Source: Octopus vulgaris (lineage: Eukaryota). Taken from it: a DNA stretch of 64,000 nt. The stretch's first letter is position 1, and each line of letters begins with the position of its first letter. The notes under the pieces were generated by a model, which did not search any database, was not told the origin of the DNA, and saw nothing but the letters and a program-made list of their open reading frames with translations. This document shows positions 7,410-60,234 of this stretch, piece by piece. The position numbers and the translations under genes are program-made. The DNA is taken from the NCBI GenBank assembly GCA_951406725.2, contig OX597817.1:132308001-132372000 (forward strand), given 5' to 3'.

Positions 7410-8200
7410 TAAATCCGGATTCCCGTTTGCGCCGTGAACGAATTAATCTTCTCTCTCGCTCTTATACGCCATTTGGTCTCATCTCCCCCTCCTCATCTAA
7501 CCCCCTCTCCCCTCCTCATATCCTTTCTCCCCCGACCCCTACTTCTTCAGTCCTTCATCCTTTCACCCCTACTCCCCTTCCCTTCTTCCCTTTCCTCCCT
7601 CTCCTTCCCTCTGCTCCCTCACTCCTCTCCCCTTCTCTCCCCCTCTTTCCTCCTTCATCCCCCATCCCCTTCCTTCTCCCCATCCTCTCCTCTCCCCTTC
7701 TTCCCTCCTCCTCTCCCCCTCTTCTCCCCTCCCCTCTTCTCCTCACTATGACTATCACATCATATGATGTGCCATATATATATATATATATATATACTAG
7801 TATATATATACACCAACCCTATATATATATATATATACATATATATACATACTAATATATATATACACCAACCCATATATATATATATATCTCTCATACA
7901 CACACACACACACACACACCTATATATATATATATATACACACATCCAGACCCCTCACGCACTTTTAGCTGGTCCCTCAACCCATTATCAACCCTATTAT
8001 CTCCTATATATATATATATTCGTTAGCTACTACGCATTTTTTCTCTCCTTCTTTCTGTGTTTTCTCTCTGTGTATCTTTCTGTTGAAGAGCGTATAAACG
8101 TTAAAGACTTGTTTATTTATATAGCGCCATACTAATACAATTGTTCGTTTGTTTTCCACCTGCCTTCGTCTTTTGTTTATTTTCATAAAGCTTCCCGTTA
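7410..8200 (+). mobile_element. 3' end of a Penelope-like element (endonuclease C-terminal tip, pyrimidine-rich UTR, family A pLTR)
   Basis: [23 protein letters not shown] resembles the RLRRE..LI..L....P.GLN end of PLE GIY-YIG domains; followed by a pLTR with a partially deleted HHR motif (about 8074-8108); flanked by (TA)n. Confidence 0.6.
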
Positions 8201-8388: not shown

Positions 8389-8607
8389 GTGTGGGGATTT
8401 TTCCTTGTGTTATTTGTCCTGTACTCTATTTTTTCGTTGTTTAAGAAAAATGTCCAGTTCCTTGGTTTTGTGTTTATGTTTTCGTTTCTCATTGTGTTTC
8501 GACGTTTTTTTTGTGTCCTGTACCCATATATGCATGTATATATACATGTAGATGTAGGTACGTACATATATGTATGTATATATGCATATGTTTTATTTAT
8601 TAATTTG

Positions 8608-8646
<39 letters not shown>

Positions 8647-8650
<4 letters not shown>

Positions 8651-8830
8651 AGATCGCTAGCCACTATACCTTTTTCTATTTTCTCTCCCTGTTTCTTTCT
8701 GTTTCCTTTCTGTTGAAGAGCGTAGGCTCGAAACGTAAAACACTTTCTCACTTCCCGTGCGTTAAACTAATACATCTGTGTGTTGTTTACACACCCGTCT
8801 TCGTTTTGTTTTTTGTAAATTCTCACTACA
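8647..8830 (+). mobile_element. Solo PLE pseudo-LTR, family A, with HHR-like motif (core at 8710)
   Basis: ctttCTGTTGAAgagcgtaggctcGAAACGTAaaa; same family as 10020-10405, 41390-41550 and 60052-60238; TA-flanked. Confidence 0.75.
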
Positions 8831-9860: not shown

Positions 9861-10019
9861 GATTTATATATCTCTCTATATATATATATATGTGTATGTG
9901 TCTTAACAAACAATTAAAGATGGAGAAGAAAATGTGTTAAAAATTTAACAAGAATTTAATCTTTTAACACTTTTTCTTCCCTATCTTTAAAAAGAATTTA
10001 ACACACCTTATATTTATTG

Positions 10020-10405
10020 AGAGTTTACAAGAAAGAAAAAGAAAAGAAAAAGACGAAGACGGGTGTGTAAACAACAAAGAGATGTGTTAGTTTAACGTTC
10101 GGGAAGTGAGAAAGTCTTTTCCGTTTCGCGCCTACGCTCTTCAACAGAAGGGAAAGCAGAAAGAAACAGGGAGAGAATATAGAAAAAGGTATAGTGGCTA
10201 GCGATCGATCATTGCGACTCCTTTTTCTCTCTCCTTCTTTTCTCTCCTTGTTTCTCTCCTTATTTTTTTCTGTGTCCCTTTCTGTAGAAGAGCGTAGGCT
10301 CGAAACATAAAAGACTTTTTCTATTCCTGAGCGTTATACTAATACATCTGTTTGTTTTGTACACCACCTGTCTTCGTCTTTTGTTTTTTTCGTAAACTCT
10401 CCCTA
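10020..10405. mobile_element. Head-to-head inverted pair of family A PLE pLTRs
   Basis: 10020-10215 is the reverse complement of the family A pLTR and 10220-10405 is a + strand copy; HHR-like motifs at about 10113-10152 (-) and 10277-10315 (+). Confidence 0.75.
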
Positions 10406-10415
10406 TATATATATA

Positions 10416-11277
10416 TACTCTTTTACTTGTTTCAGTCATTTGACTGCGTCCATGCTGGAGCACCGCCTTTAGTCAAGCAAATCGACCCCGGGACTTATTC
10501 TTTGTAAGCCCAGTACTTATTCTATCGGTCTCTTTTGCCGAACCGCTAGATTACGGGGACGTAAACACACCATCATCGGTTGTCAAGCAATGCTAGGGGG
10601 ACAAACACAGACAAACAAACACATACACACATACATACACACATACATACACACGCACATACGCACATACACATATACATACACACATGTACACACACAC
10701 ATACATACACACATACATACATACATACACACCCACATACACACATACACGTATGCACACATACATACATACATACACACACACATATACGCATGCACAC
10801 ATACATACATACACACACACATACATATATACACACACACACGTACACACACACATACTACAAACAAAACACACACACGATACATATACATATACATACA
10901 CACACATACCTCTTTGTTTTTGACCTGCGATTGGACCCACAACACCACTCCTTAATTCTTACTACTAGCCTGCTACCCAGTTGTTCGCCATACACACACA
11001 CACACGCACACACACACTTGTCATCATCGCATACTTTCTTTACCATACTGTCTTTGATATAGCTCTCCTGTCTCTTGAAAAACTTTATTCTTCTACTTTT
11101 ACCACTTCCGTCTTTTAGTATGTGACCTCGTCTGTATCACTAGCGATTTTTTCCCCTGTCTTCCCTTCTCGGGATCTTTCCTTCTCCTATGTTTCCGACG
11201 AAGAGCGTCCTGAGCGTCCAACAATACTTTATTTGTTCCACGTCCTTGCGTTGTTGTTTTTGTTTTCTTGTTTGGAT

Positions 11278-11343
<66 letters not shown>

Positions 11344-22440: not shown

Positions 22441-22481
<41 letters not shown>

Positions 22482-22753
22482 CCACGTGAATCAATGGCGA
22501 TTTTCTTCCTCCGTCCTCCCATCTATTGGATTTCCATCTGTTTCCGAAGAAGAGCGTCTACTTGAAACATTAAACCATCTTTCTTTCATTTCCTTAGCGT
22601 CTACTAATACATTACTTGTACCAAGTCCTCACGTTGTTGTATTTTTTTGTTTGTTCTTCTTAGGATTTACTTATATATATATACATTAAAATTTTATGTC
22701 AAGTATGATAAAGTTTCCAATTTCATATATTTTCGTCTTTTTCTTCTTCACAG

Positions 22754-26108: not shown

Positions 26109-26111
<3 letters not shown>

Positions 26112-26314
26112 TAATCCAAACGGGAAAACAGAAAAAACAACAACACGTGTAACAATTAAAGTATTATTATTAGGCGCTCAGGAAAGAGGGAAGAAGGAGG
26201 GTATGACGTTTCGAGCGGAGCTCTTCGTCGGAAACATACGAGAAGGAAGAAAGAAAAATCCCGAGGTTGGCGAACAGAGGGAAAAAAAACGCGACTGGTT
26301 TTTACGAAGTAAAC
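26109..26314 (-). mobile_element. Solo PLE pLTR, family B, with HHR-like motif at 26201-26235
   Basis: Minus strand gtttCCGACGAAgagctccgctcGAAACGTCatac; closely matches 43857-44070; (TA)n on both sides. Confidence 0.8.
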
Positions 26315-26332
26315 ATATATATATATATATAT

Positions 26333-26661
26333 GAGAATTACTTGCATAGCAAGTGATTTGATCTGAGATCGTGTGCTGGAACGAAAACAATTGCAGCGTG
26401 GTAGGTGTTTGTAAGCCATTTAAGAAACACACAAAAGCCGTTCGATTCACTTCAACATTTAAGTTTAATTTGTCAAAATATTTTCGTCGCTATAAGACCG
26501 CGACCTGTTCACTGACAAAAATCGTGCTGCATCAGTGGACATGTCGCGGTCTTATAGCGACGAAAATATTTTGACAAATTAAACTTAAATGTTGAAGTGA
26601 ATCGAACGGCTTTTGTGTGTTTCTTAAATGGCTTACAAACACCTTCCATGCTGCATTTGTG
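26333..26661. mobile_element. Palindromic (fold-back) element, family E, in (TA)n
   Basis: About 125-bp near-perfect inverted arms; second copy at 58684-59023. Confidence 0.9.
26469..26519 (-). ncRNA. Minimal type I hammerhead with G3-C8 swapped core
   Basis: uuuguca GUGAACA g gucgc ggucuuaua gcgac GAAA AUAU UU ugacaaa: 7-bp stem I, 5-bp stem II, palindromic helix III. Confidence 0.7.
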
Positions 26662-40137: not shown

Positions 40138-41389
40138 CACATATATATATATGTACATATATATATAATTAAATAAGGGTAGAAATCGATATTAATCAAT
40201 TAAAACGAGTGGCCTAGCATATTTAAAAAAAAATCCGAAGATTAAAATTTTTTTACATACAAAATTCAGAGGATTAACCACTAAAAGTGGACAGCCTGTA
40301 TGCTAGATATAGACGTCAAAATCGCTATTTCCCACGGTTAAGGTGTCCTCATGAAAAAATTCGGCAAAAAACCAAAGCGTAAAAATAAGCAAGTCAAATG
40401 AAAATATACGAAATAAAAAACGATTACCTATGTACTAATTAGTTTCACTTGTTAATAATTTACGTATATGAATACGTAAACATCTGCATGTATGTATTCA
40501 TAAACATATAGAAGTAGCGGTGGTAGTTGTAACAGCAGCAGATGATTTTAGTTTTTTGACCAAGATGTCACCGTCTTGTCACATTCTGGTATGGACTATG
40601 ATTATATTCTAGCAGTCGATGTGTGAAATTGATATTATTACGTGTAGAAAAACAAACATTATGAACTCTCCGCTCCTAATACAACTAACACCATCCACTA
40701 CAAAACATCTGTTGGGTTTTGCTATTAAAAGACTCCCTTTTTTTATTTAATTTTCTTATATGAAGCGAGACATATTGTAATGGTGTTCAAACGGTCCTTT
40801 CCTCGACAACATAATGTATTACTTGATTCGATAAGCAATAATATGATCTACGACTATGAGATCAAGAGGACTGCGTAGATCCATTACCAAATATAACAGG
40901 GAATACAAAACACATCAAAGACAAGCCGCAGCTCTACAATAATTTTCTTTCTTTGCATTGAAATTTATAGAAATATTTTTCACGCATGGAAAGAACTTCA
41001 AGTACATTTTTTCTATTTAGTTTCGATAAATTCTAATCAGACTTGGAATAGCGATTTTGGTGTAAAATGGGTTTGCAAATATAGACACTCACAGACAGAC
41101 ATACACACACACACATACGCATACACACACATATACATCTATATATATATGGATGTATCTGTTTGTCTGTCTGTCTCTCTTTCTCTCTCTCTCTCTCTCT
41201 CCTATATATGTATATATATATATACACATCTACACACCACCATTCCACCCGGATTACTGCTGGATATACATATGGATTTCACTGGACCCTTCCGTTGATG
41301 AAAAATCGCTCCAATACACCCCGATGTTTGAACCATTATGAACTTTTTTGAACTTTCTGTTTTTTCTACTCTGTTTTCTCTCCGAAAGT

Positions 41390-42438
<1,049 letters not shown>

Positions 42439-42796: not shown

Positions 42797-43306
42797 GTGT
42801 ATGTACACGCACATACAAACGCTTGTGCACACAGACACGCAGACACACACAGACACACACACACACACACACATACACACACATATTGTTGTATTTCGGG
42901 ATTGGCATTTTCTTTTTCCAAATAAACACATGCACTATATATTGTTTTTTTTTTGTAATAAGCAGAGCAAGAACACACACGAAGACGGAAAGTGTCGGTG
43001 AAGAGGTCACAGATGTGTGACGAAAGAATTTCGGATAATAGACATGAACTAGAATAAGAACAGTAATAAACGAGTGAAGAACGAACATATAATGCGTGTG
43101 TTTATTTGGGAAATGTGCATGACCATCCCGAAATACAACAATATCTGTTTCAATACACGGCTTCACATCAGGAATCTTGCAACACAAATTCATAAACGTA
43201 TATATATAAACGTACAAAAAACAAAAGACGGGTGCGTAAACAACAAACAGATGTATTAGTTTTAACGCTCGGGAAGTGAGAAAGTCTTTTACATTTAGAG
43301 CCTATA

Positions 43307-43354
<48 letters not shown>

Positions 43355-43737
43355 CACACACACACATATATATATATGTATACACACAAACGCACATATA
43401 TATATATATATATATGCGTCTATTTGTGGTGTCCTGTACTCACGTATATATATTTATATATGCATGTATATATACATGTAGATGTAGGTACGTACATATA
43501 TGTATGTATGTATGCATATATTTTATTTATTAAACTAATATATATATATATATATATATAAAAAAAGGAAATGAAGAAAATGCTGACAAATAATTGAAGT
43601 AATTTAAGTAATTTAATTAGGTGAAAGTTCTTTTTACCGGTTGCGCATTTGTTATGCTTATTATTTCAATTATTTGTCAGCATTTTCTTCATTTCCTTTT
43701 TTATATATCACCACTCGTGTTCGACATCTCCTTTTTT

Positions 43738-43856: not shown

Positions 43857-44845
43857 TTAATCCAAACGGGAAAACAAAAAAACAACAACAGTGGAACAAT
43901 TACAGTATTATTATTAATAGGCGCTCAGGAAATATGGAAGCAGGAAGGTATGACGTTTCGAGCGGAGCTCTTCGTCGGAAACATAAAGAAGGAAGAGAGA
44001 GGAAAGAAAGATCCCAAAGTGGGCAACAGGAGATGGAGAAAAAAACGACTGGTGTTTACGAAGTACACATGGTGAAAGGCGGAAGTTTACGATAACAAGA
44101 GCAAAGTAGGTTTTTAAAGCCAAAAGAGTGGAGACAGGGTTGGTAACGCAACAGATGTGTGTGTATGTGTGAGTGTGTGCGTGTGCGTGTGTGTATGTGT
44201 GTGTGAGGCGAGATAAAAAAACAAAAAATATATGTATGTGTTAGTGTGTGCGTCTGTGTGTAGGCGTGTCAGGTAGGGCGAACAGTAGTAGGCAACAGAC
44301 AAGTGGTCAGTAGTAAGAAAATGAAGGAAGGAGGAAGGGAGGGAGGGGAAGGGGTGGGGGCGTATGTAACGTGCCAGCGTGTGTTGAGTAGTAGTGTGTG
44401 TGTGTCCAGTGTCGTGGTAGTATTAATGGCGAGTAGATTTGAATGTGTGTAAGAGTAATGTATATATTTAAGCAATGTGTATATGTGAGTGGGTGTATGT
44501 ATGTGTGCGTGTGTGTGTAACAAAAAAGGGGGGTTAAGGAAAAAGGACTCCAGCTGAGGGGAAGATGGAAGAGTGGTCCCGCGGAGACGGGCGTGGGAGA
44601 ACCCAACGACAGGCGACGGTCCCAGGAACGAGGGGGAGGTCTCGTCGGGTCCAAGAGCGAGGTGCATGCAGCGCGTATGCGTGCGCGAACCGGCGCAAGC
44701 GCGTGTGAGCGCGCCTGCGAGTGTGCGCGTAAGTATGTATGTGTGTGGATGTGTGAGTGTGTCTGTGTGTATGTCTGGGTGTCAGTGTGTCCGATGAATG
44801 TATGTGAGTATGTGTGTATATATGTGTGTGCATAGATGTATGTCC

Positions 44846-44876
<31 letters not shown>

Positions 44877-47274
44877 AGTGTGTATGTATGTACGTGTGGG
44901 TGTGTGGAAGTGTGTGTATGTGCATGTGTGTGCGCGTACATACAGGTGTGTGAGTGAGTGTGTGTGTGTGTATGTATGTGTGAGTGTGTATGTATGTGTG
45001 TGTAGGATGCATGTATGTGTATGGGTGTATGTATGTGTGTGTGTATGTATGTATGTGTACGTGCGTGTGTGTGTGTGTATGCGTGTAGGTGTGCGCGTGT
45101 GCATGCATGCATGCATGTGCGTATGTGTGTGTGTGTGCATGTGTGTGGGTATAAATGTGTGTGCGTATATGTGTGTGTATGTGCGTACATGTGTGTGTGT
45201 GTATACATGTGTGTGTATGTAGGTGTGTAGGCGTGTGTGTATAGGTGTATGTATGTAAGTATGTATGGGTGTGTCCGTGTATGTGTGTGTATGTATGTGT
45301 GTGTAGGTGTGTGGGCGTGTGTATATAGGTGTATGTATGTCTGGGTGTGTCCGTGCATGTTTGTGTGTGTGTGTGTGTATGCATGTGTATGTAGGTGTGT
45401 GTGTACGTGTGTAATGTATGTGTGTATGCGTGTGTGTGCGTGTGTATGCGTGCGTGTGTGTATGTAGGTGCGTATGTATGTGTGTGGGAGTGTAGGTGTG
45501 TGTGTGCGTGTGCGTGTTTATGTTGGTGTGTGCGTATGTGAGTGTGAGTGTATGGGTGTTTGTCATGCATGTGTGTGCGCGTGCAGGCGAGTGTGTGTGT
45601 AAGTATGTGTGTGTGTATGTTTGTGTGAGTGTGTATGTGTGTATGTCTGTGTGTGTGTATGTGCGTATAGGAGTATGTAGGTATGTGTGTGTGTATGTGT
45701 ATGGGTGTATGTATGTATGTGTGTGTGTATGTGTGCATGTGTATAAGTATATGTGTGTGTGCGTATGTGTGTGTATGTGTATGTGTGTGTGTTTATGTAT
45801 GTGTGTATGTATGTGTGTAGGCGTGTGTGTGTAGATGTGTGTGCGTATGTGTGTGTCTGTATGTGTATGTGTGTGTGTGTAGGTAGGTAGGTGTGTGTGT
45901 CTGAGTGAGGGTATGGCTGTGTAGGTGTGTGTGTGTATGAATGTAAGTGTGTGTGTACAAGTGTAATGTATGTATGTAGGTGTGTGTGTGTGTGTATGTG
46001 TACGTGTGCGTGTGTATGTGTGTGTGTGTATGCGTGTGAGTGTGAGTGTATGGGTGTATGTCTGTGTGTGTGTATGTCTGAAGTAGGTATGTGTGTGTAT
46101 GTATGTATGTGTGTGTGTGCGGGTATGTGTGTGTGTGTGTATGTGTGTGTGTGAGTAGGTGTGCGTGTATGTATGTGGGTAGGGATGCATGCGAGTGTGT
46201 GGGTATGTATGCATACATACGCACGCGCACATCCGAAGCAAGCCCACACACACGAAGCGCGCTCACGCACACAACACACAAGCAATACAACGCAAGCCCA
46301 TGGGGCCGACCAAGCCCCAGCGCGCGCCAAGGCGCGCGAGCGCAAAGGCCCTCGAACGACCCGCTACGCGGGAACCGAGGATCCATCAGCCAAAACCGGA
46401 AAGCAGAAAAGAGGGGGGGCTGCCTGGATGCAAAAAGGTGTATGTGTGTGTGCATTCAGTGTAAGGGTGTGCATGTGTGGGTATGTATGTATGTGTGCAC
46501 GTGTGGTGTGTGTGTGTACGTGCGGTGTGTGTGTGTGAGTGTGTGTGTATGTATGTGCGTATGTATGTGTGTATGTATGTGTGTATGTATGTCTGTGTGT
46601 GTATGTGTGTGTGTGTAAGTATGTATGTGTGTGTTTGTAGGGTGAAGATGTAGCGTTGCTCCAAGTGGAGCCTGGAAAGTGGGCGACCATTGTGGGGAGC
46701 GAGACCAAACACTGAGATGTCATCTAGGGAATGGCCGGCCGAGCGGAAGTGGCGTGCGACGGGAGAAAAAGAGTGTAGGCGAACGTCCCTCAAATGTTCT
46801 GTGAATCGGTCGGACAACCGGCGTCCCGTCTGTCCTACATACAGCATCCCGCATAGGTTGCATTTAATGCAGTAAATAAGGCCAGACGAGGTGCACGTAA
46901 AAGAGTGCCTAATGCGTACAGTATGCTGGTTGGAGCCGGTGACAGCGGTGGTGTTGGTGATGAAGGGGCAAGTGTTGCAGCGGGATCTAGAGCAAGGGAA
47001 TGATCCGTGTGGGGCTGAGGGGGAAGGAGAGAGGGTGCTGTGGACCAGGAGGTCACGCAGATTGCGGGCTCGTTTGAAGGAGGACAGGGGTGGGTTTGGG
47101 AAAATGGGGCGGGTGGTGGGATCAAGCTGGAGGCGACGGAAGGCACGTAGTATCTTGCGACGAAGGGGTAGGGTAGAGGGGTGGAAAAGGAGGGGGAAGG
47201 GGGTGCGGTTGGGGGGTGGGCGGGGGAAGGAGACAGGGCGGTGGTGCGGTCGATGCGACGGCGCGGGTGAGGGC
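43857..47274 (-). mobile_element. 5'-truncated Penelope-like retroelement (Neptune-type): GIY-YIG, long (CA)-rich 3' region, family B pLTR with HHR (43948-43982)
   Basis: Co-oriented endonuclease, UTR and pLTR ending at (TA)n. Confidence 0.8.
46633..47274 (-). CDS. PLE GIY-YIG endonuclease domain with upstream Cys linker (partial ORF)
   Basis: SFKRARNLRDLLVHS, FPCSRSRCNTCPFI, FTCTSSGLIYCIKCNLCGMLYVGQTGRRLSDRFTEHL, SPVARHF...H, EQRYIFTL. Confidence 0.93.
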
Positions 47275-48165
<891 letters not shown>

Positions 48166-48999: not shown

Positions 49000-49115
49000 T
49001 GTATATATATATACATACTCCTTCTTCTCTTTTTCCTGAGTGCCTAATAATAATACTTTAATTGTTCCACCTCCTTGTGTTGTTGTTTTTTCTGTTTTCT
49101 CGTTTGGATTAACCT

Positions 49116-49232: not shown

Positions 49233-49591
49233 GGGTCTGGATCAACTTTCAGCTGTTCTTTTAGTTGAGAAGACACATTCAGTCTGACTGCTTTTGATCT
49301 TCCGTGAACAAGCGATTTTTCTGTAAGTCGATCCATTCACGACTCCTCACTCAAAATTCATTGTCAGGAGCTCCAGGACACACCAGTTATATCAAAAACT
49401 TCGTCAATTGTTCGGTGACGGTCTTCCAAGATCAGTTCGTGAATTTTCATTATCTTTTCATTCGCTCAAGAGTTTGACGGACGCCCCCAACGAGGCTGGT
49501 TTTCCTAAAGCATGAAAACCACTCGTAAAACTCGTGTTTTGCTCACAGAAGCGTCCTTGTAAGCTGTTTGTAGCATGACAACTGTTTCGGC
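49233..49591 (-). pseudogene. mariner transposase N-terminal fragment
   Basis: AETVVMLQTAYKDASVSKTRV..EWF...GRPS...IHELILEDRHRTIDE; TEDQKQSRL. Confidence 0.8.
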
Positions 49592-49609
49592 ATATACATA
49601 TATATATGA

Positions 49610-49644: not shown

Positions 49645-50852
49645 GGGTTGGTAACTAATTTCCCGCCGCTTTTTAAAATTAAACATTTTTGAAAGGTTTA
49701 ATGAAAAAAATAACAACTAATTAATCAATAATGTATTCACCCTTGTTTACAACTTCTTCCCAATGTTCAACAAGATTTTCAATACCTCATTGGTAGAAAT
49801 CACCCGATTTCGTCTCGAAAAATTAATCTAACCAAGCTCTCAATTCTGCATCAGTATTAAACGAAACTCCGCGCATAGCATTTGAAAGAGATCGAAAGAG
49901 GTAGAAATCCGTTGGTGCCAAATCAGGAGAGTATAGCGAGTGTGGCAGCACTTCCTAGCCATGCGTTTGAATGGCTTTCTTGGTCATATTGGCGATATGA
50001 GGGCGGGCGTTGTCGTGCAGCAGGACTCCATGCTGACGATTAGGTCTTTTCTCTTTAATAGCCGTGTTGAGTCGTTCCATCTGTTGAACATTGAGTTCCG
50101 CGTTGACCGTTTGGTTCCGTTAAAGCAATTCGTAATGGATAATCCCTTCCCAGTCCCACCACAACATCGTTTTACTGGGAAGATCTTGCTTCACGCGCGG
50201 TGTCGCTTGTTTACCGGGGCTAAGCCATTCCTTACGCTGCTTCATATTGATGTACAGGCACCATTTTTCGTCGGCAGTAACGATTCGGGAAAGAAATCGT
50301 TGCTTGTGTCCACGAGTTGAGCAGTGACTAGCAAGCAAACCAGCGGAGATTGTGATTCGTTGATTTTTGTTGTTGAAACTTAAAGTAAGCGGAACCCATG
50401 CTCCATACTTCTGAACCTTTCCCATCGAGTGAAGATGCTTCTCTATAGCAGTTTGGGAGCATTAAATTTTCCCTGCCAGTTCTCTTGCCGTTTGACGAGA
50501 ATTTTCGTGCAAAAGTTGGTTTAATCGCTCTTTATCGAACTCAACTGGACAGCCAGAGCGAGGTGCGTCTTTGAGGTAAAAAATTTCTATTTTTGAACTT
50601 GGCATACCAATCACGAGCGATTCTTTCAGCTTTGGCACCCTCTCCGTACACAGCACAAATGTCACGAGGAGCTTTTGCGGTCTTAGAACCTTGATTAAAA
50701 GCAAAAAGGTGTCAAAAATTCTTGTTTTTCTTAACTTGACATTACATTTTAGTGATCTGAAAATTAAGAAAAATTAACTAAAATTAACTAGAAAAAAAGC
50801 AAAATAGATTTCAAAATTTAAAAAACCGCGAGAACTTAGTTGCCAAACCCTA
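49643..50852 (-). mobile_element. Full-length decayed mariner (DD34D) transposon
   Basis: WVP, IVTADEKW and YSPDLAPTDFYLF motifs; TIRs gggttggtaactaatttcccgccg / gggtttggcaactaagttctcgcgg. Confidence 0.92.
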
Positions 50853-50919: not shown

Positions 50920-51960
50920 AGTAGAAATATGTTACGAAAAGAAAGTATAAAATACACGTGGAAATGTAAGGGTAAAATATGAAAGATTCAACGAAAATGC
51001 ATATTGCAAATAGAAAAAGGCTCTTTATGACAGGTAGTGACAAATATATACATTTAGATTGACTGAGGTAGTAATACGAGTCATAAAGGTCATTATTATG
51101 AGATGATTATACGATGATAATAAAGTAAGAGAACAAAACGTTAGGTCGACAAGGTCTTTCCATTCATTTAAATTAAGGTTGGATTATCACAATATTAAAA
51201 ATCAATTAAACCCAGACTACATTAGCCACAGACGATATAACAACCCTCAGTTCAACCATAATCCAGTACACTACACAACCACTCCACCACAAACATACTA
51301 CCATAGACACACTTTACACCCACCTTTTCCTCAGCAAACCAAACAAAATACAGACCTTCCACTTCAATCCACCTACTACAACCATTTTTGAGACGTAAAC
51401 CAGAGAAACAGAGATGTGAAATGGAACAAAATAAACAAGTCCAACCGAAAATAATCAACCTGTCAAAGAAAATGCTGAGTTCTATACAATTCAAAATCCT
51501 AGGAAGAGGTCTAAAATTTACCCCTACCCCCGCAGATCGAACTCAAATGAAATCAAGGATAATACTTTGGACTTCTGCCGAAAATTACGCCTCATAGAAA
51601 CTTTTTACAACTACACCAGTGAAGATGACTCAATAGTGAAAAACAAAAGTGAGTACCATCCTACAAAAGGTAGAAATAAAGCACTTGATGTTTTCTGTGA
51701 TCACATAACTTGTTTTCCTTACAATACCATTCCAAAACAACATATCAAATCCAACCTTAATTTAAATGAATGGAAAGACCTTGTCGAGCTAACGTTTTGT
51801 TCTCTTACTTTATTTTCATCTTATAATCATCTCATGATAATGACCTTTATGACTCGTATTACTACCTCAGTCAGTCTAAATGTATATATTTGTCACTACC
51901 TGTCATAAAGAGCCTTTTTCTATTTGCAATATGCATTTTCGTTGATTTATCATATTTTAC

Positions 51961-58683: not shown

Positions 58684-59019
58684 GGAGATGTACTCGCATA
58701 GCAAGTGATTTGATCTGAGATCGTGTGCTGAAACGAAAACAATTGCAGCGTGGAAGGTGTTTGTAAGCCATTTAAGAAACACACAAAAGTCGTTCGATTC
58801 ACTTCAACATTTAAGTTTAATTTGTCAAAATATTTTCGTCGCTAAAATCCTCGACCTGTTCACTGATAAAAATCCGTGCAGCACGGATTTTTGTCAGTGA
58901 ACAGGTCGCGGTCTTATAGCGACGAAAATATTTTGACAAATTAAACTTAAATGTTGAAGTGAATCGAACGCTTTTGTGTGTTTCTTAAATGGCTTACAAA
59001 CACCTTCCACGCTGCAATT

Positions 59020-60051: not shown

Positions 60052-60234
60052 CATGATAGATCGTTAGATACTACACGCATTTTTTCTCTCCTTGTTTTTT
60101 TCTGTGTATCTTTCTGTCGAAGAGCGTAGGCTCGAAACGTAAAAGACTTTTTCTATTCCTGAGCGCTATACTAATACATTTGTTTGTTTGTACTCCACCT
60201 GCGTTCGTCTATTGTTTATTTTCACAAACTTTAC

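What the first reader, a model, noticed from the sequence alone, without database searches (positions are those of the whole stretch)
60109..60146. Family A: abundant loop-less hammerhead variant with an A6U core (CUGUNGA)
Seen: ucuuu-CUGUNGA-A-GAGC-guag-GCUC-GAAACGUA-aaaga recurs at about 8074 (deleted), 8706, 10113 (-), 10277, 41425, 43280 (partial) and 60109. Position 7 varies freely (U, A, C) as in real hammerheads, but position 6 is always U instead of the conserved A. Helix III is the bare palindrome ACGU with no loop. Established: such small PLE hammerheads can only cleave as dimers. Inference: a fixed non-canonical core in a high-copy family, linked to a PLE endonuclease tip at 7410-7490.
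Basis: partly seen in the sequence, partly recalled or inferred. Interest (0 to 1): 0.75.

Follow-up and report, generated by a model that had tools for sequence, protein, structure and literature searches.

The report
Mutant-core hammerhead in abundant jumping-gene repeat
A very common short repeat in this animal genome carries a tiny self-cutting-RNA motif of a kind known from Penelope-type jumping genes, but one normally fixed catalytic letter is changed in every copy seen here, so it is probably a slowed-down version of that ribozyme.

Summary
The motif is real. It is a minimal type-I hammerhead inside a ~190-nt dispersed repeat with 7 copies in the window. Position 6 is U in 6 of 6 copies that keep it; 130 of 131 look-alike motifs in metagenome contigs have A6. 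The loop-less ACGU helix III is not new: it defines the minimal PLE hammerheads described in 2014. The closest published motif is the Acropora Neptune-element hammerhead. A homologous sister family in the window keeps A6 but has U4C, so two lineages each changed one U-turn base and kept the other core positions. The motif is unchanged between subfamilies whose flanks differ (0/27 vs 17/69 sites, p=0.002), and stem I covaries between families, which points to selection. The repeat is very abundant in four organisms. The proposed link to the 7410 'endonuclease tip' is unproven, and a link to a Hydra-type ORF was rejected. Best reading (0.5): a slow, dimer-dependent ribozyme at the 3' end of a Neptune-type Penelope-like element. 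Main rival (0.3): a non-cleaving but still selected RNA signal. Cleavage is untested. A6U was not found in the papers searched, but one key paper (Lunse 2017) could not be read.

The parts
60109..60146 (+). Minimal type-I hammerhead motif with U6: stem I 60109-13/60142-46; core 60114-20; extra A 60121; stem II 60122-25/60130-33; G12-A14 60134-36; ACGU palindrome 60137-40; predicted cleavage after A17 at 60141
60053..60232 (+). Family A repeat unit (subfamily A2) that carries the motif; ends in (TA)n
8020..8200 (+). Family A copy (A2), C3 at 8080, U6, 5-nt deletion in stem II
8646..8830 (+). Family A copy (A1), C3 at 8710, U6, stem I cut to 3 bp
10010..10212 (-). Family A copy (A1), C3 at 10147, U6, U16.1 lost; head-to-head with the next copy
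10225..10405 (+). Family A copy (A2), C3 at 10282, U6, A7, palindrome broken (ACAU)
41227..41550 (+). Longest family A copy (A3), C3 at 41431, U6. Its 5' extension 41227-41345 is joined to the motif region in other contigs too; coding status unresolved
43210..43304 (-). Family A 3' fragment (A1) without core positions 3-9
43860..44075 (-). Sister family B copy, C3 at 43978, core CCGACGA (U4C, A6 kept)
26110..26330 (-). Sister family B copy, C3 at 26231, U4C
22480..22680 (+). Sister family B copy, C3 at 22544, U4C, stem II and palindrome damaged
11130..11285 (+). Sister family B copy, C3 at 11195, U4C, 3' half of the motif deleted
46630..47275 (-). 5'-truncated Neptune-type PLE endonuclease (CxxxxCxxC finger, GIY-YIG), 2.6 kb upstream of the family B copy at 43978 on the same strand; candidate for the kind of element that mobilises families A and B (link inferred)
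7410..7495 (+).

Best explanation
Family A is the 3' terminal repeat (pLTR) of a Neptune-type Penelope-like retroelement, now present mostly as short 5'-truncated or non-autonomous copies ending at (TA)n. It carries a minimal hammerhead descended from the canonical Neptune motif. An early master copy fixed A6U; a sister lineage fixed U4C. Both changes hit the CUGA U-turn, while C3-G8, G5, A9, G12, A13, A14, 10.1-11.1 and 15.1-16.1 are kept. Mechanism: one copy cannot form helix III and folds into an off-state hairpin that hides ACGU. Two head-to-tail copies in one transcript pair their ACGU palindromes and swap stem I strands, giving a double hammerhead that cuts after GUA, slowly because U6 weakens the U-turn. 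The cut would release unit-length element RNA for reverse transcription by the PLE protein, while slow cutting would spare lone copies and the host transcripts that contain them. Shown: anatomy, U6 in window copies, conservation of the motif, abundance, tandem joints. From literature: dimer mode, and reduced but detectable activity of a position-6 variant. Inferred: the Neptune partner, residual cleavage, and any benefit of slowness.
For: Architecture equals the published minimal PLE hammerhead (extra base after A9, G10.1-C11.1, palindromic 15.2-16.2). Its closest row there is the Acropora digitifera Neptune motif, and the same motif makes up most of the 131 metagenome matches. 12 of 129 fetched loci have an endonuclease C-terminus 8-151 nt upstream on the same strand; the longest such endonuclease matches are 43-48% identical to the window's own at 46620-47300. 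Selection: 0 of 27 diagnostic differences in the motif vs 17 of 69 in the 3' flank between subfamilies A1 and A2, p=0.002; pairwise identity 0.90-0.93 in the motif vs 0.60-0.79 in flanks; summed contig depth peaks on the motif at roughly 3-12 times the adjacent 3' flank in four runs. Stem I: 3 of 4 pairs change on both sides across families A, B and the canonical motifs; 90.9% of cells pair; 0 of 500 shuffles reach that value; slid controls give 23-39%. Head-to-tail joints (41549 back to 41385; 41550 back to 41274; 41552 back to 41266) and a depth fall toward the 5' end fit PLE copying. Positions 4 and 6 are where natural low-activity variants are in print: A6C in phage Bcep176 (kobs under 0.1/min) and U4C in a viroid (PMC3088659).
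Against: No cleavage data. In a saturation study of another hammerhead, single and double mutants in the CUGA region were low in activity apart from the C3-G8 swap (PMC9901934). Canonical minimal hammerheads are already weak in vitro, so A6U on top may leave nothing. No covariation within family A (stem II nearly invariant); the between-family covariation counts related sequences many times and may predate A6U. A vs B: 6 of 28 motif differences vs 19 of 55 in the flank, not significant (p=0.16). The selection test rests on 3 + 3 copies and a low-complexity flank. No window copy of family A is in head-to-tail tandem or joined to a recognisable ORF; only 3 of 7 are intact. Energy calculations place the active dimer above two monomers for all 7 motifs tested, the canonical control included, so they do not discriminate.
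Confidence: 0.5

Rival explanations
1. The motif no longer cleaves but is kept as a structured RNA signal, for example for recognition or priming by the PLE reverse transcriptase. Loss of cutting may even have helped the family spread.
For: Two sister lineages each changed a U-turn base needed for catalysis while fold and purine-rich core stayed. Craig et al. note that hammerhead function in EN+ PLEs is unclear and that lacking one does not hinder, and may help, amplification (PMC8557442). With U7, U6 creates a new helix U4-G5-U6-U7 with A14-A15.1-C15.2-G16.2 that makes the off-state monomer 2.1 and 4.0 kcal/mol more stable in two copies. In the same runs the U6 motif has 13- to 80-fold more summed depth than the canonical-core hammerhead at 41797 (one comparison).
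Against: G8, G12, the C3-G8 pair and the NUH site are all kept in intact copies of both families, and positions 7 and 17, the two free positions of a working hammerhead, are among those that differ. For the C7 copy at 60114, U6 makes the monomer less stable, not more.
Confidence: 0.3
2. A dead relic. A6U was fixed by chance in a master copy that no longer needed the ribozyme, and the motif only looks conserved because it is the one GC-rich island in mutation-prone pyrimidine tracts, or because subfamilies exchanged it.
For: 4 of 7 window copies have broken motifs. Flanks are low-complexity and hard to align. The A-vs-B contrast is not significant. The depth peak may partly reflect alignability.
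Against: 0 of 27 vs 17 of 69 diagnostic sites; the 3' flank holds complex sequence that aligns between A2 and B (0-1 of 500 shuffles); stem I pairing holds in both families.
Confidence: 0.15
3. The likeness to a hammerhead is chance, or the motif is another kind of RNA element.
For: Rfam gives no hammerhead match; folding z-scores of single copies are unremarkable, from +0.47 to -1.34.
Against: Rfam also misses the canonical control; 12 of 13 conserved positions, the extra base, the palindrome and both stems match; near-identical canonical motifs lie behind PLE endonucleases.
Confidence: 0.03

Closest known systems
Minimal type-I hammerhead of the Acropora digitifera Neptune PLE (Cervera and De la Pena 2014, PMC4209133, Fig. 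S3 and Table S1)
   Same: Extra A after A9, 4-bp stem II (GRGC/GCUC) with a 4-nt loop, GAAACGU with no loop III, short stem I, high copy number
   Different: A6 there, U6 here; C17 vs A17; stem I GCU/AGC vs CUUU/AAAG. All 56 motifs in Fig. S3 have A6, but the authors' descriptor required the core
A6C natural core variant of phage Bcep176 (Perreault 2011, PMC3088659; Naghdi 2020, PMC7151607)
   Same: Pyrimidine at position 6 in a natural hammerhead; low activity in Mg2+, much better in Mn2+
   Different: A single phage sequence, C rather than U; here U6 is shared by diverged subfamilies of an abundant animal repeat and sits in a minimal dimer-type motif
U4C viroid variant (as cited in PMC3088659)
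   Same: Matches the core of sister family B
   Different: There a viroid sequence variant; here present in 4 of 4 family B copies that keep the site
Non-LTR retrozymes (bioRxiv 10.64898/2026.07.22.740005; passages read)
   Same: Short non-coding PLE-derived units with a type-I hammerhead
   Different: Defined as tandem arrays with complete motifs; family A is mostly solitary in the window, with single head-to-tail joints in contigs
Hydra-clade PLE hammerheads (Craig 2021, PMC8557442, File S2)
   Same: PLE 3' end, (TA)n insertion sites; a Hydra-like piece abuts copy 41431
   Different: Canonical CUGA core in 34 of 34 File S2 rows (Hydra and Chlamys) and mostly 3-4-bp helix III; the abutting piece has its own canonical-core motif and is a separate repeat

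Membership tests
Minimal type-I hammerhead (min-HHR) | C3, U4, G5, G8, A9, G12, A13, A14 | tested here: met
   All present at 60114-60136 and in the other copies that keep these sites
Minimal type-I hammerhead (min-HHR) | A6 | tested here: not met
   U in 6 of 6 copies; A in 130 of 131 metagenome matches and in 56 of 56 published rows. Filed as a variant, not a regular member
Minimal type-I hammerhead (min-HHR) | A15.1-U16.1, palindromic 15.2-16.2, H17 | tested here: met
   ACGU-A in 60114, 8710, 41431; broken in 10282 and 10147
Minimal type-I hammerhead (min-HHR) | Extra base after A9 and G10.1-C11.1 closing stem II | tested here: met
Minimal type-I hammerhead (min-HHR) | Stem I closing the motif, with compensatory changes | tested here: met
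   3 of 4 pairs change on both sides between families; none within family A
Minimal type-I hammerhead (min-HHR) | Self-cleavage as a dimer | not testable with these tools
   No assay; folding energies do not discriminate
pLTR of a Penelope-like element (Neptune type) | Lies downstream of an RT-endonuclease ORF | tested here: inconclusive
   Shown for canonical relatives; plausible for family B (endonuclease 2.6 kb upstream); not shown for family A
pLTR of a Penelope-like element (Neptune type) | 5' truncation, partial tandems and inverted pairs | tested here: met
   Depth falls toward the 5' end and three go-back joints are listed; inverted pair 10147/10282
pLTR of a Penelope-like element (Neptune type) | Insertion at microsatellites | tested here: met
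   Commonest loose end behind 41550 is (TA)n in all four runs; most window copies end at (TA)n
Hydra-clade PLE | Family A joined to an RWK-type ORF | tested here: not met
   None of the 32 listed contig pieces bridges 41550/41555; the ORF piece has its own hammerhead at 41797
Non-LTR retrozyme | Tandem units each with a complete hammerhead | tested here: inconclusive
   No tandem in the window; single head-to-tail joints in contigs
Non-LTR retrozyme | Circular RNA forms | not testable with these tools
   No raw RNA reads were laid

The most novel reading that the evidence does not exclude
In this lineage the most abundant Penelope-derived repeats carry ribozymes that were damped on purpose: two sister families independently fixed different U-turn changes (A6U, U4C) and kept them under selection, giving hammerheads that cut only under special conditions (a tandem partner, a protein helper, or Mn2+ as with A6C) or serve as non-cutting signals. 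Such families would be invisible to CUGA-based searches and could be a large uncounted class of animal genomic ribozymes.
Probability: 0.25. Interest if true: 0.75.

Novelty: new variant of a known kind. Interest (0 to 1): 0.5.

Why it matters
What the hammerhead does for endonuclease-bearing Penelope-like elements is open (PMC8557442). This genome offers a natural series: a canonical-core motif (41797), an A6U family and a U4C family, side by side and abundant. Comparing their cleavage rates with age and copy number would test directly whether self-cleavage is needed, tuned or dispensable for spread. It also shows that searches requiring CUGA can miss very large hammerhead-derived families. 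The class itself (minimal dimer-type PLE hammerheads) is known, which limits the surprise.

Tried and rejected
No whole genome is held, so no genome-wide count or subfamily consensus was possible. Rfam on the whole window gave only microsatellite-driven matches in the 150 of 310 rows shown; targeted scans found no hammerhead for family A or for a canonical control, so Rfam is blind to this class. The exact family A pattern had 0 matches in metagenome contigs. The relaxed pattern had 0 matches in viral contigs and 8 in prokaryote genomes, none with U6, three of them canonical motifs that look like animal DNA in assemblies. A looser U6 pattern in prokaryote genomes was swamped by matches and was not analysed. 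Phage DNA search: one 26-nt match at E 0.5. Link of family A to the Hydra-like ORF at 41591: considered because of adjacency, rejected. The 5' extension 41227-41345 as an endonuclease end: no significant alignment in any of three frames, no clear synonymous bias (2-4 of 11 variants per frame), no protein relative for one frame (weak search). The 7410 tip: not significant. Dimer energies: uninformative. Lunse, Weinberg and Breaker 2017 (RNA Biol 14:1499) is not held; only its title and a review's summary were seen, and it could already list this variant. PMC5785220 was a wrong id. Passages of PMC6962438, PMC11014351 and PMC6466107 added nothing on position 6. Supplements of the 2026 retrozyme preprint are closed and might hold related consensus motifs.

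Full report
Observation. It lies in a dispersed repeat of about 190 nt with seven copies in the window. Six copies keep position 6 and all six have U (C3 at 8080, 8710, 10147 minus, 10282, 41431, 60114); the piece at 43304-43242 lacks that part. Position 7 is U four times, A once and C once. Three copies are intact or nearly so (60114, 41431, 8710); four are broken. A relaxed descriptor gave 4 sites against 0 in each of 200 local shuffles. A covariance model built from 8 window copies and 4 canonical motifs recovered those 8, the deleted copy at 8074, and two weak matches at 11189 and 41791, and no new family A copy.

Host. No genome is held. The window looks like an octopod genome: an ORF start at 41591 resembles, by eye, the N-terminus of Hydra-1_Obim printed in the supplement of PMC8557442, and the dispersed SINE-like repeats look like octopus ones (recalled, from no call). 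This is inference.

What it is. Cervera and De la Pena (PMC4209133; parts 1-2 of 4 of the text and parts 1-2 of 3 of the supplement read) define the minimal PLE hammerhead by exactly these traits: no loop III, palindromic 15.2-16.2, an extra base after A9, and G10.1-C11.1. So the 'loop-less' trait is known. All 56 motifs in their Fig. S3 have A6, though their descriptor required the core; so do 34 of 34 rows in File S2 of PMC8557442. The closest row is the Acropora digitifera Neptune motif. The single U6 match is a stray change in an otherwise canonical copy. Of 129 fetched loci (8 from prokaryote assemblies, 121 from metagenomes; flanks were fetched for only 80 of the latter), 12 have a PLE endonuclease C-terminus 8-151 nt upstream on the same strand. 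The window holds a 5'-truncated endonuclease of the same kind at 47275-46630 minus, with a CxxxxCxxC finger and GIY-YIG (Pfam E 0.0025, below the curated cut-off). It is 43-48% identical to the longest of those endonuclease matches, and its protein relatives carry RVT_1. By the clade features in PMC8557442 (passages read) this is Neptune-type; no tree was built.

A sister family. Four copies of a second repeat (C3 at 26231 minus, 43978 minus, 11195, 22544) have the core CCGA(C/A)GA: U4C with A6 kept. It aligns with family A over the whole unit. Outside the ribozyme, the 3' flanks of subfamily A2 match family B with 0-1 of 500 shuffles as good in all 8 comparisons; for A1 and A3 the match is weak (12-76 of 500). 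The B copy at 43978 lies 2.6 kb downstream of the endonuclease on the same strand, across a CA-rich stretch, so it may be that element's end; this is inferred. The simplest history is a canonical Neptune motif that gave rise to one lineage with A6U and one with U4C.

Abundance and layout. Four DNA runs labelled as four organisms from four studies were laid on 41225-41865; X1 may be the window's own source, which leaves three independent ones. Summed depth on the motif is 1.5-4.9 million in X1, X3 and X8 (0.5-0.8 million in X5), against 21-64 (4-9 in X5) for single listed contigs. The tool warns that this is no copy number; it suggests tens of thousands of copies or more. Depth falls from the motif to about 10,000 at 41291-41334 and about 1,000 further 5' (X1, X3, X8), as expected for 5'-truncated retrocopies. 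The commonest loose end behind 41550 is (TA)n. Three go-back joints show head-to-tail arrangements, each in one contig per run. Position 6 (41434) is not among the 40 of 227 variant rows shown; every shown row reaches at least 39% in one run, so U6 is probably the majority letter in all four organisms, but fixation is not proven.

Links tested. The Hydra-like ORF piece beside copy 41431 is a separate repeat: contig pieces start at 41552-41555, none of the 32 listed pieces bridges the junction, and it has its own canonical-core hammerhead at 41797 whose usual continuation gives a 4-bp palindromic helix III. The segment 41227-41345 is joined to the motif region in several contigs, but no frame could be shown to code. 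The 7410-7490 piece looks like an endonuclease end by eye, scores no better than 39 of 200 shuffles, has no second copy in the window and is separated from the 8080 copy by about 530 nt with microsatellites.

Is the motif under selection? Between subfamilies A1 and A2 there are 0 diagnostic differences in 27 motif sites and 17 in 69 flank sites (p=0.002); pairwise identity is 0.90-0.93 in the motif and 0.60-0.79 in flanks. This uses only three copies per side and a partly low-complexity flank. Between A and B the contrast is 6 of 28 vs 19 of 55 (p=0.16); the six are positions 4, 6, 7, 17 and two loop II bases. On 12 aligned motifs, 90.9% of cells pair, no shuffle of 500 reaches that, slid controls give 23-39%, and three stem I pairs change on both sides. 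These changes are between families, and related sequences are counted many times; within family A there is no covariation.

How it probably works. A Schistosoma minimal hammerhead was inactive alone and weakly active as dimer or trimer. For position 6, the natural A6C variant cleaves at under 0.1 per minute (PMC3088659, section 8 and passages read) and does much better with Mn2+ than with Mg2+ (PMC7151607, parts 1-2 of 4 read). U4C lowers activity in vitro yet supports viroid infectivity. A saturation study found low activity for changes in the CUGA region other than the C3-G8 swap (PMC9901934, passages). That both U4 and a purine at 6 build the U-turn is recalled structural knowledge, in line. 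Folding predicts an off-state monomer for every version; in U7 copies U6 adds a helix that hides ACGU, but not in the C7 copy, and the active dimer lies above two monomers in all 7 cases including the canonical control. I commit to slow dimer-dependent cleavage after GUA (0.5), ahead of a non-cleaving selected signal (0.3) and a relic (0.15).

Novelty. Nine literature searches found no report of a natural A6U hammerhead or of octopod PLE minimal hammerheads; the whole-word search for A6U returned only a twister paper (listing only). Lunse et al. 2017 could not be read and may cover it. Earlier notes of this scan show other odd-core PLE hammerheads in other genomes and none like this sequence. 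Verdict: a new core variant of a known kind, interest 0.5. The value lies in the side-by-side A6U, U4C and canonical families, which make the role of PLE hammerheads testable.

Noticed in passing
window 41555-41865 (+): Internally deleted Hydra-type PLE piece: frameshifted ORF start at 41591 and a canonical-core hammerhead at 41797 whose 3' end is damaged in this copy; in four runs the usual continuation gives a palindromic ACAGCUGU helix III. The hammerhead part is itself abundant.
   Followed up: partly
window 43860-47275 (-): Possible single 5'-truncated Neptune-type insertion: endonuclease, about 2.6 kb of CA-rich sequence with two GC-rich islands (46420-46230, 44720-44540), then the U4C repeat.
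   Followed up: partly
window 51451-51794 (+): N-terminal fragment of another PLE ORF with a GLKF motif (tblastn E 0.02-0.09), flanked by what appear by eye to be inverted copies of one stretch at about 51010-51140 and 51800-51960.
   Followed up: no
window 47280-47590 and 47850-48165: Direct repeat of about 300 nt at the 5' junction of the endonuclease fragment, with a (TATC)n tract between.
   Followed up: no
window 49720-50500 (-) and 49250-49600 (-): Two decayed stretches that read like mariner-type transposase (recognised by eye from translations).
   Followed up: no
window 26330-26660: Long near-perfect inverted repeat next to the family B copy at 26231; related sequence seems to recur near 58700-58980.
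   Followed up: no
window 49018-49100 (+): 3' flank of family B without the hammerhead.
   Followed up: no
window 47720-47770 (-): A lone CUGACGAAGGG stretch that looks like the 5' half of a canonical minimal hammerhead; no matching 3' half was seen.
   Followed up: no
L003, L007, L008: Prokaryote assemblies hold canonical PLE minimal hammerheads, L007 behind a Neptune-type endonuclease; probably animal DNA in those assemblies.
   Followed up: partly
L021:1494-1533 (-) and related loci: In the canonical motif family, core CUGACG pairs perfectly with CGUCAG across the cleavage site, so the monomer is predicted to sit in an inactive hairpin of -12.3 kcal/mol.
   Followed up: partly
window 8500-8610 and 43420-43540 (+): Another short repeat lies next to two family A copies, once in the same and once in the opposite orientation.
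   Followed up: no
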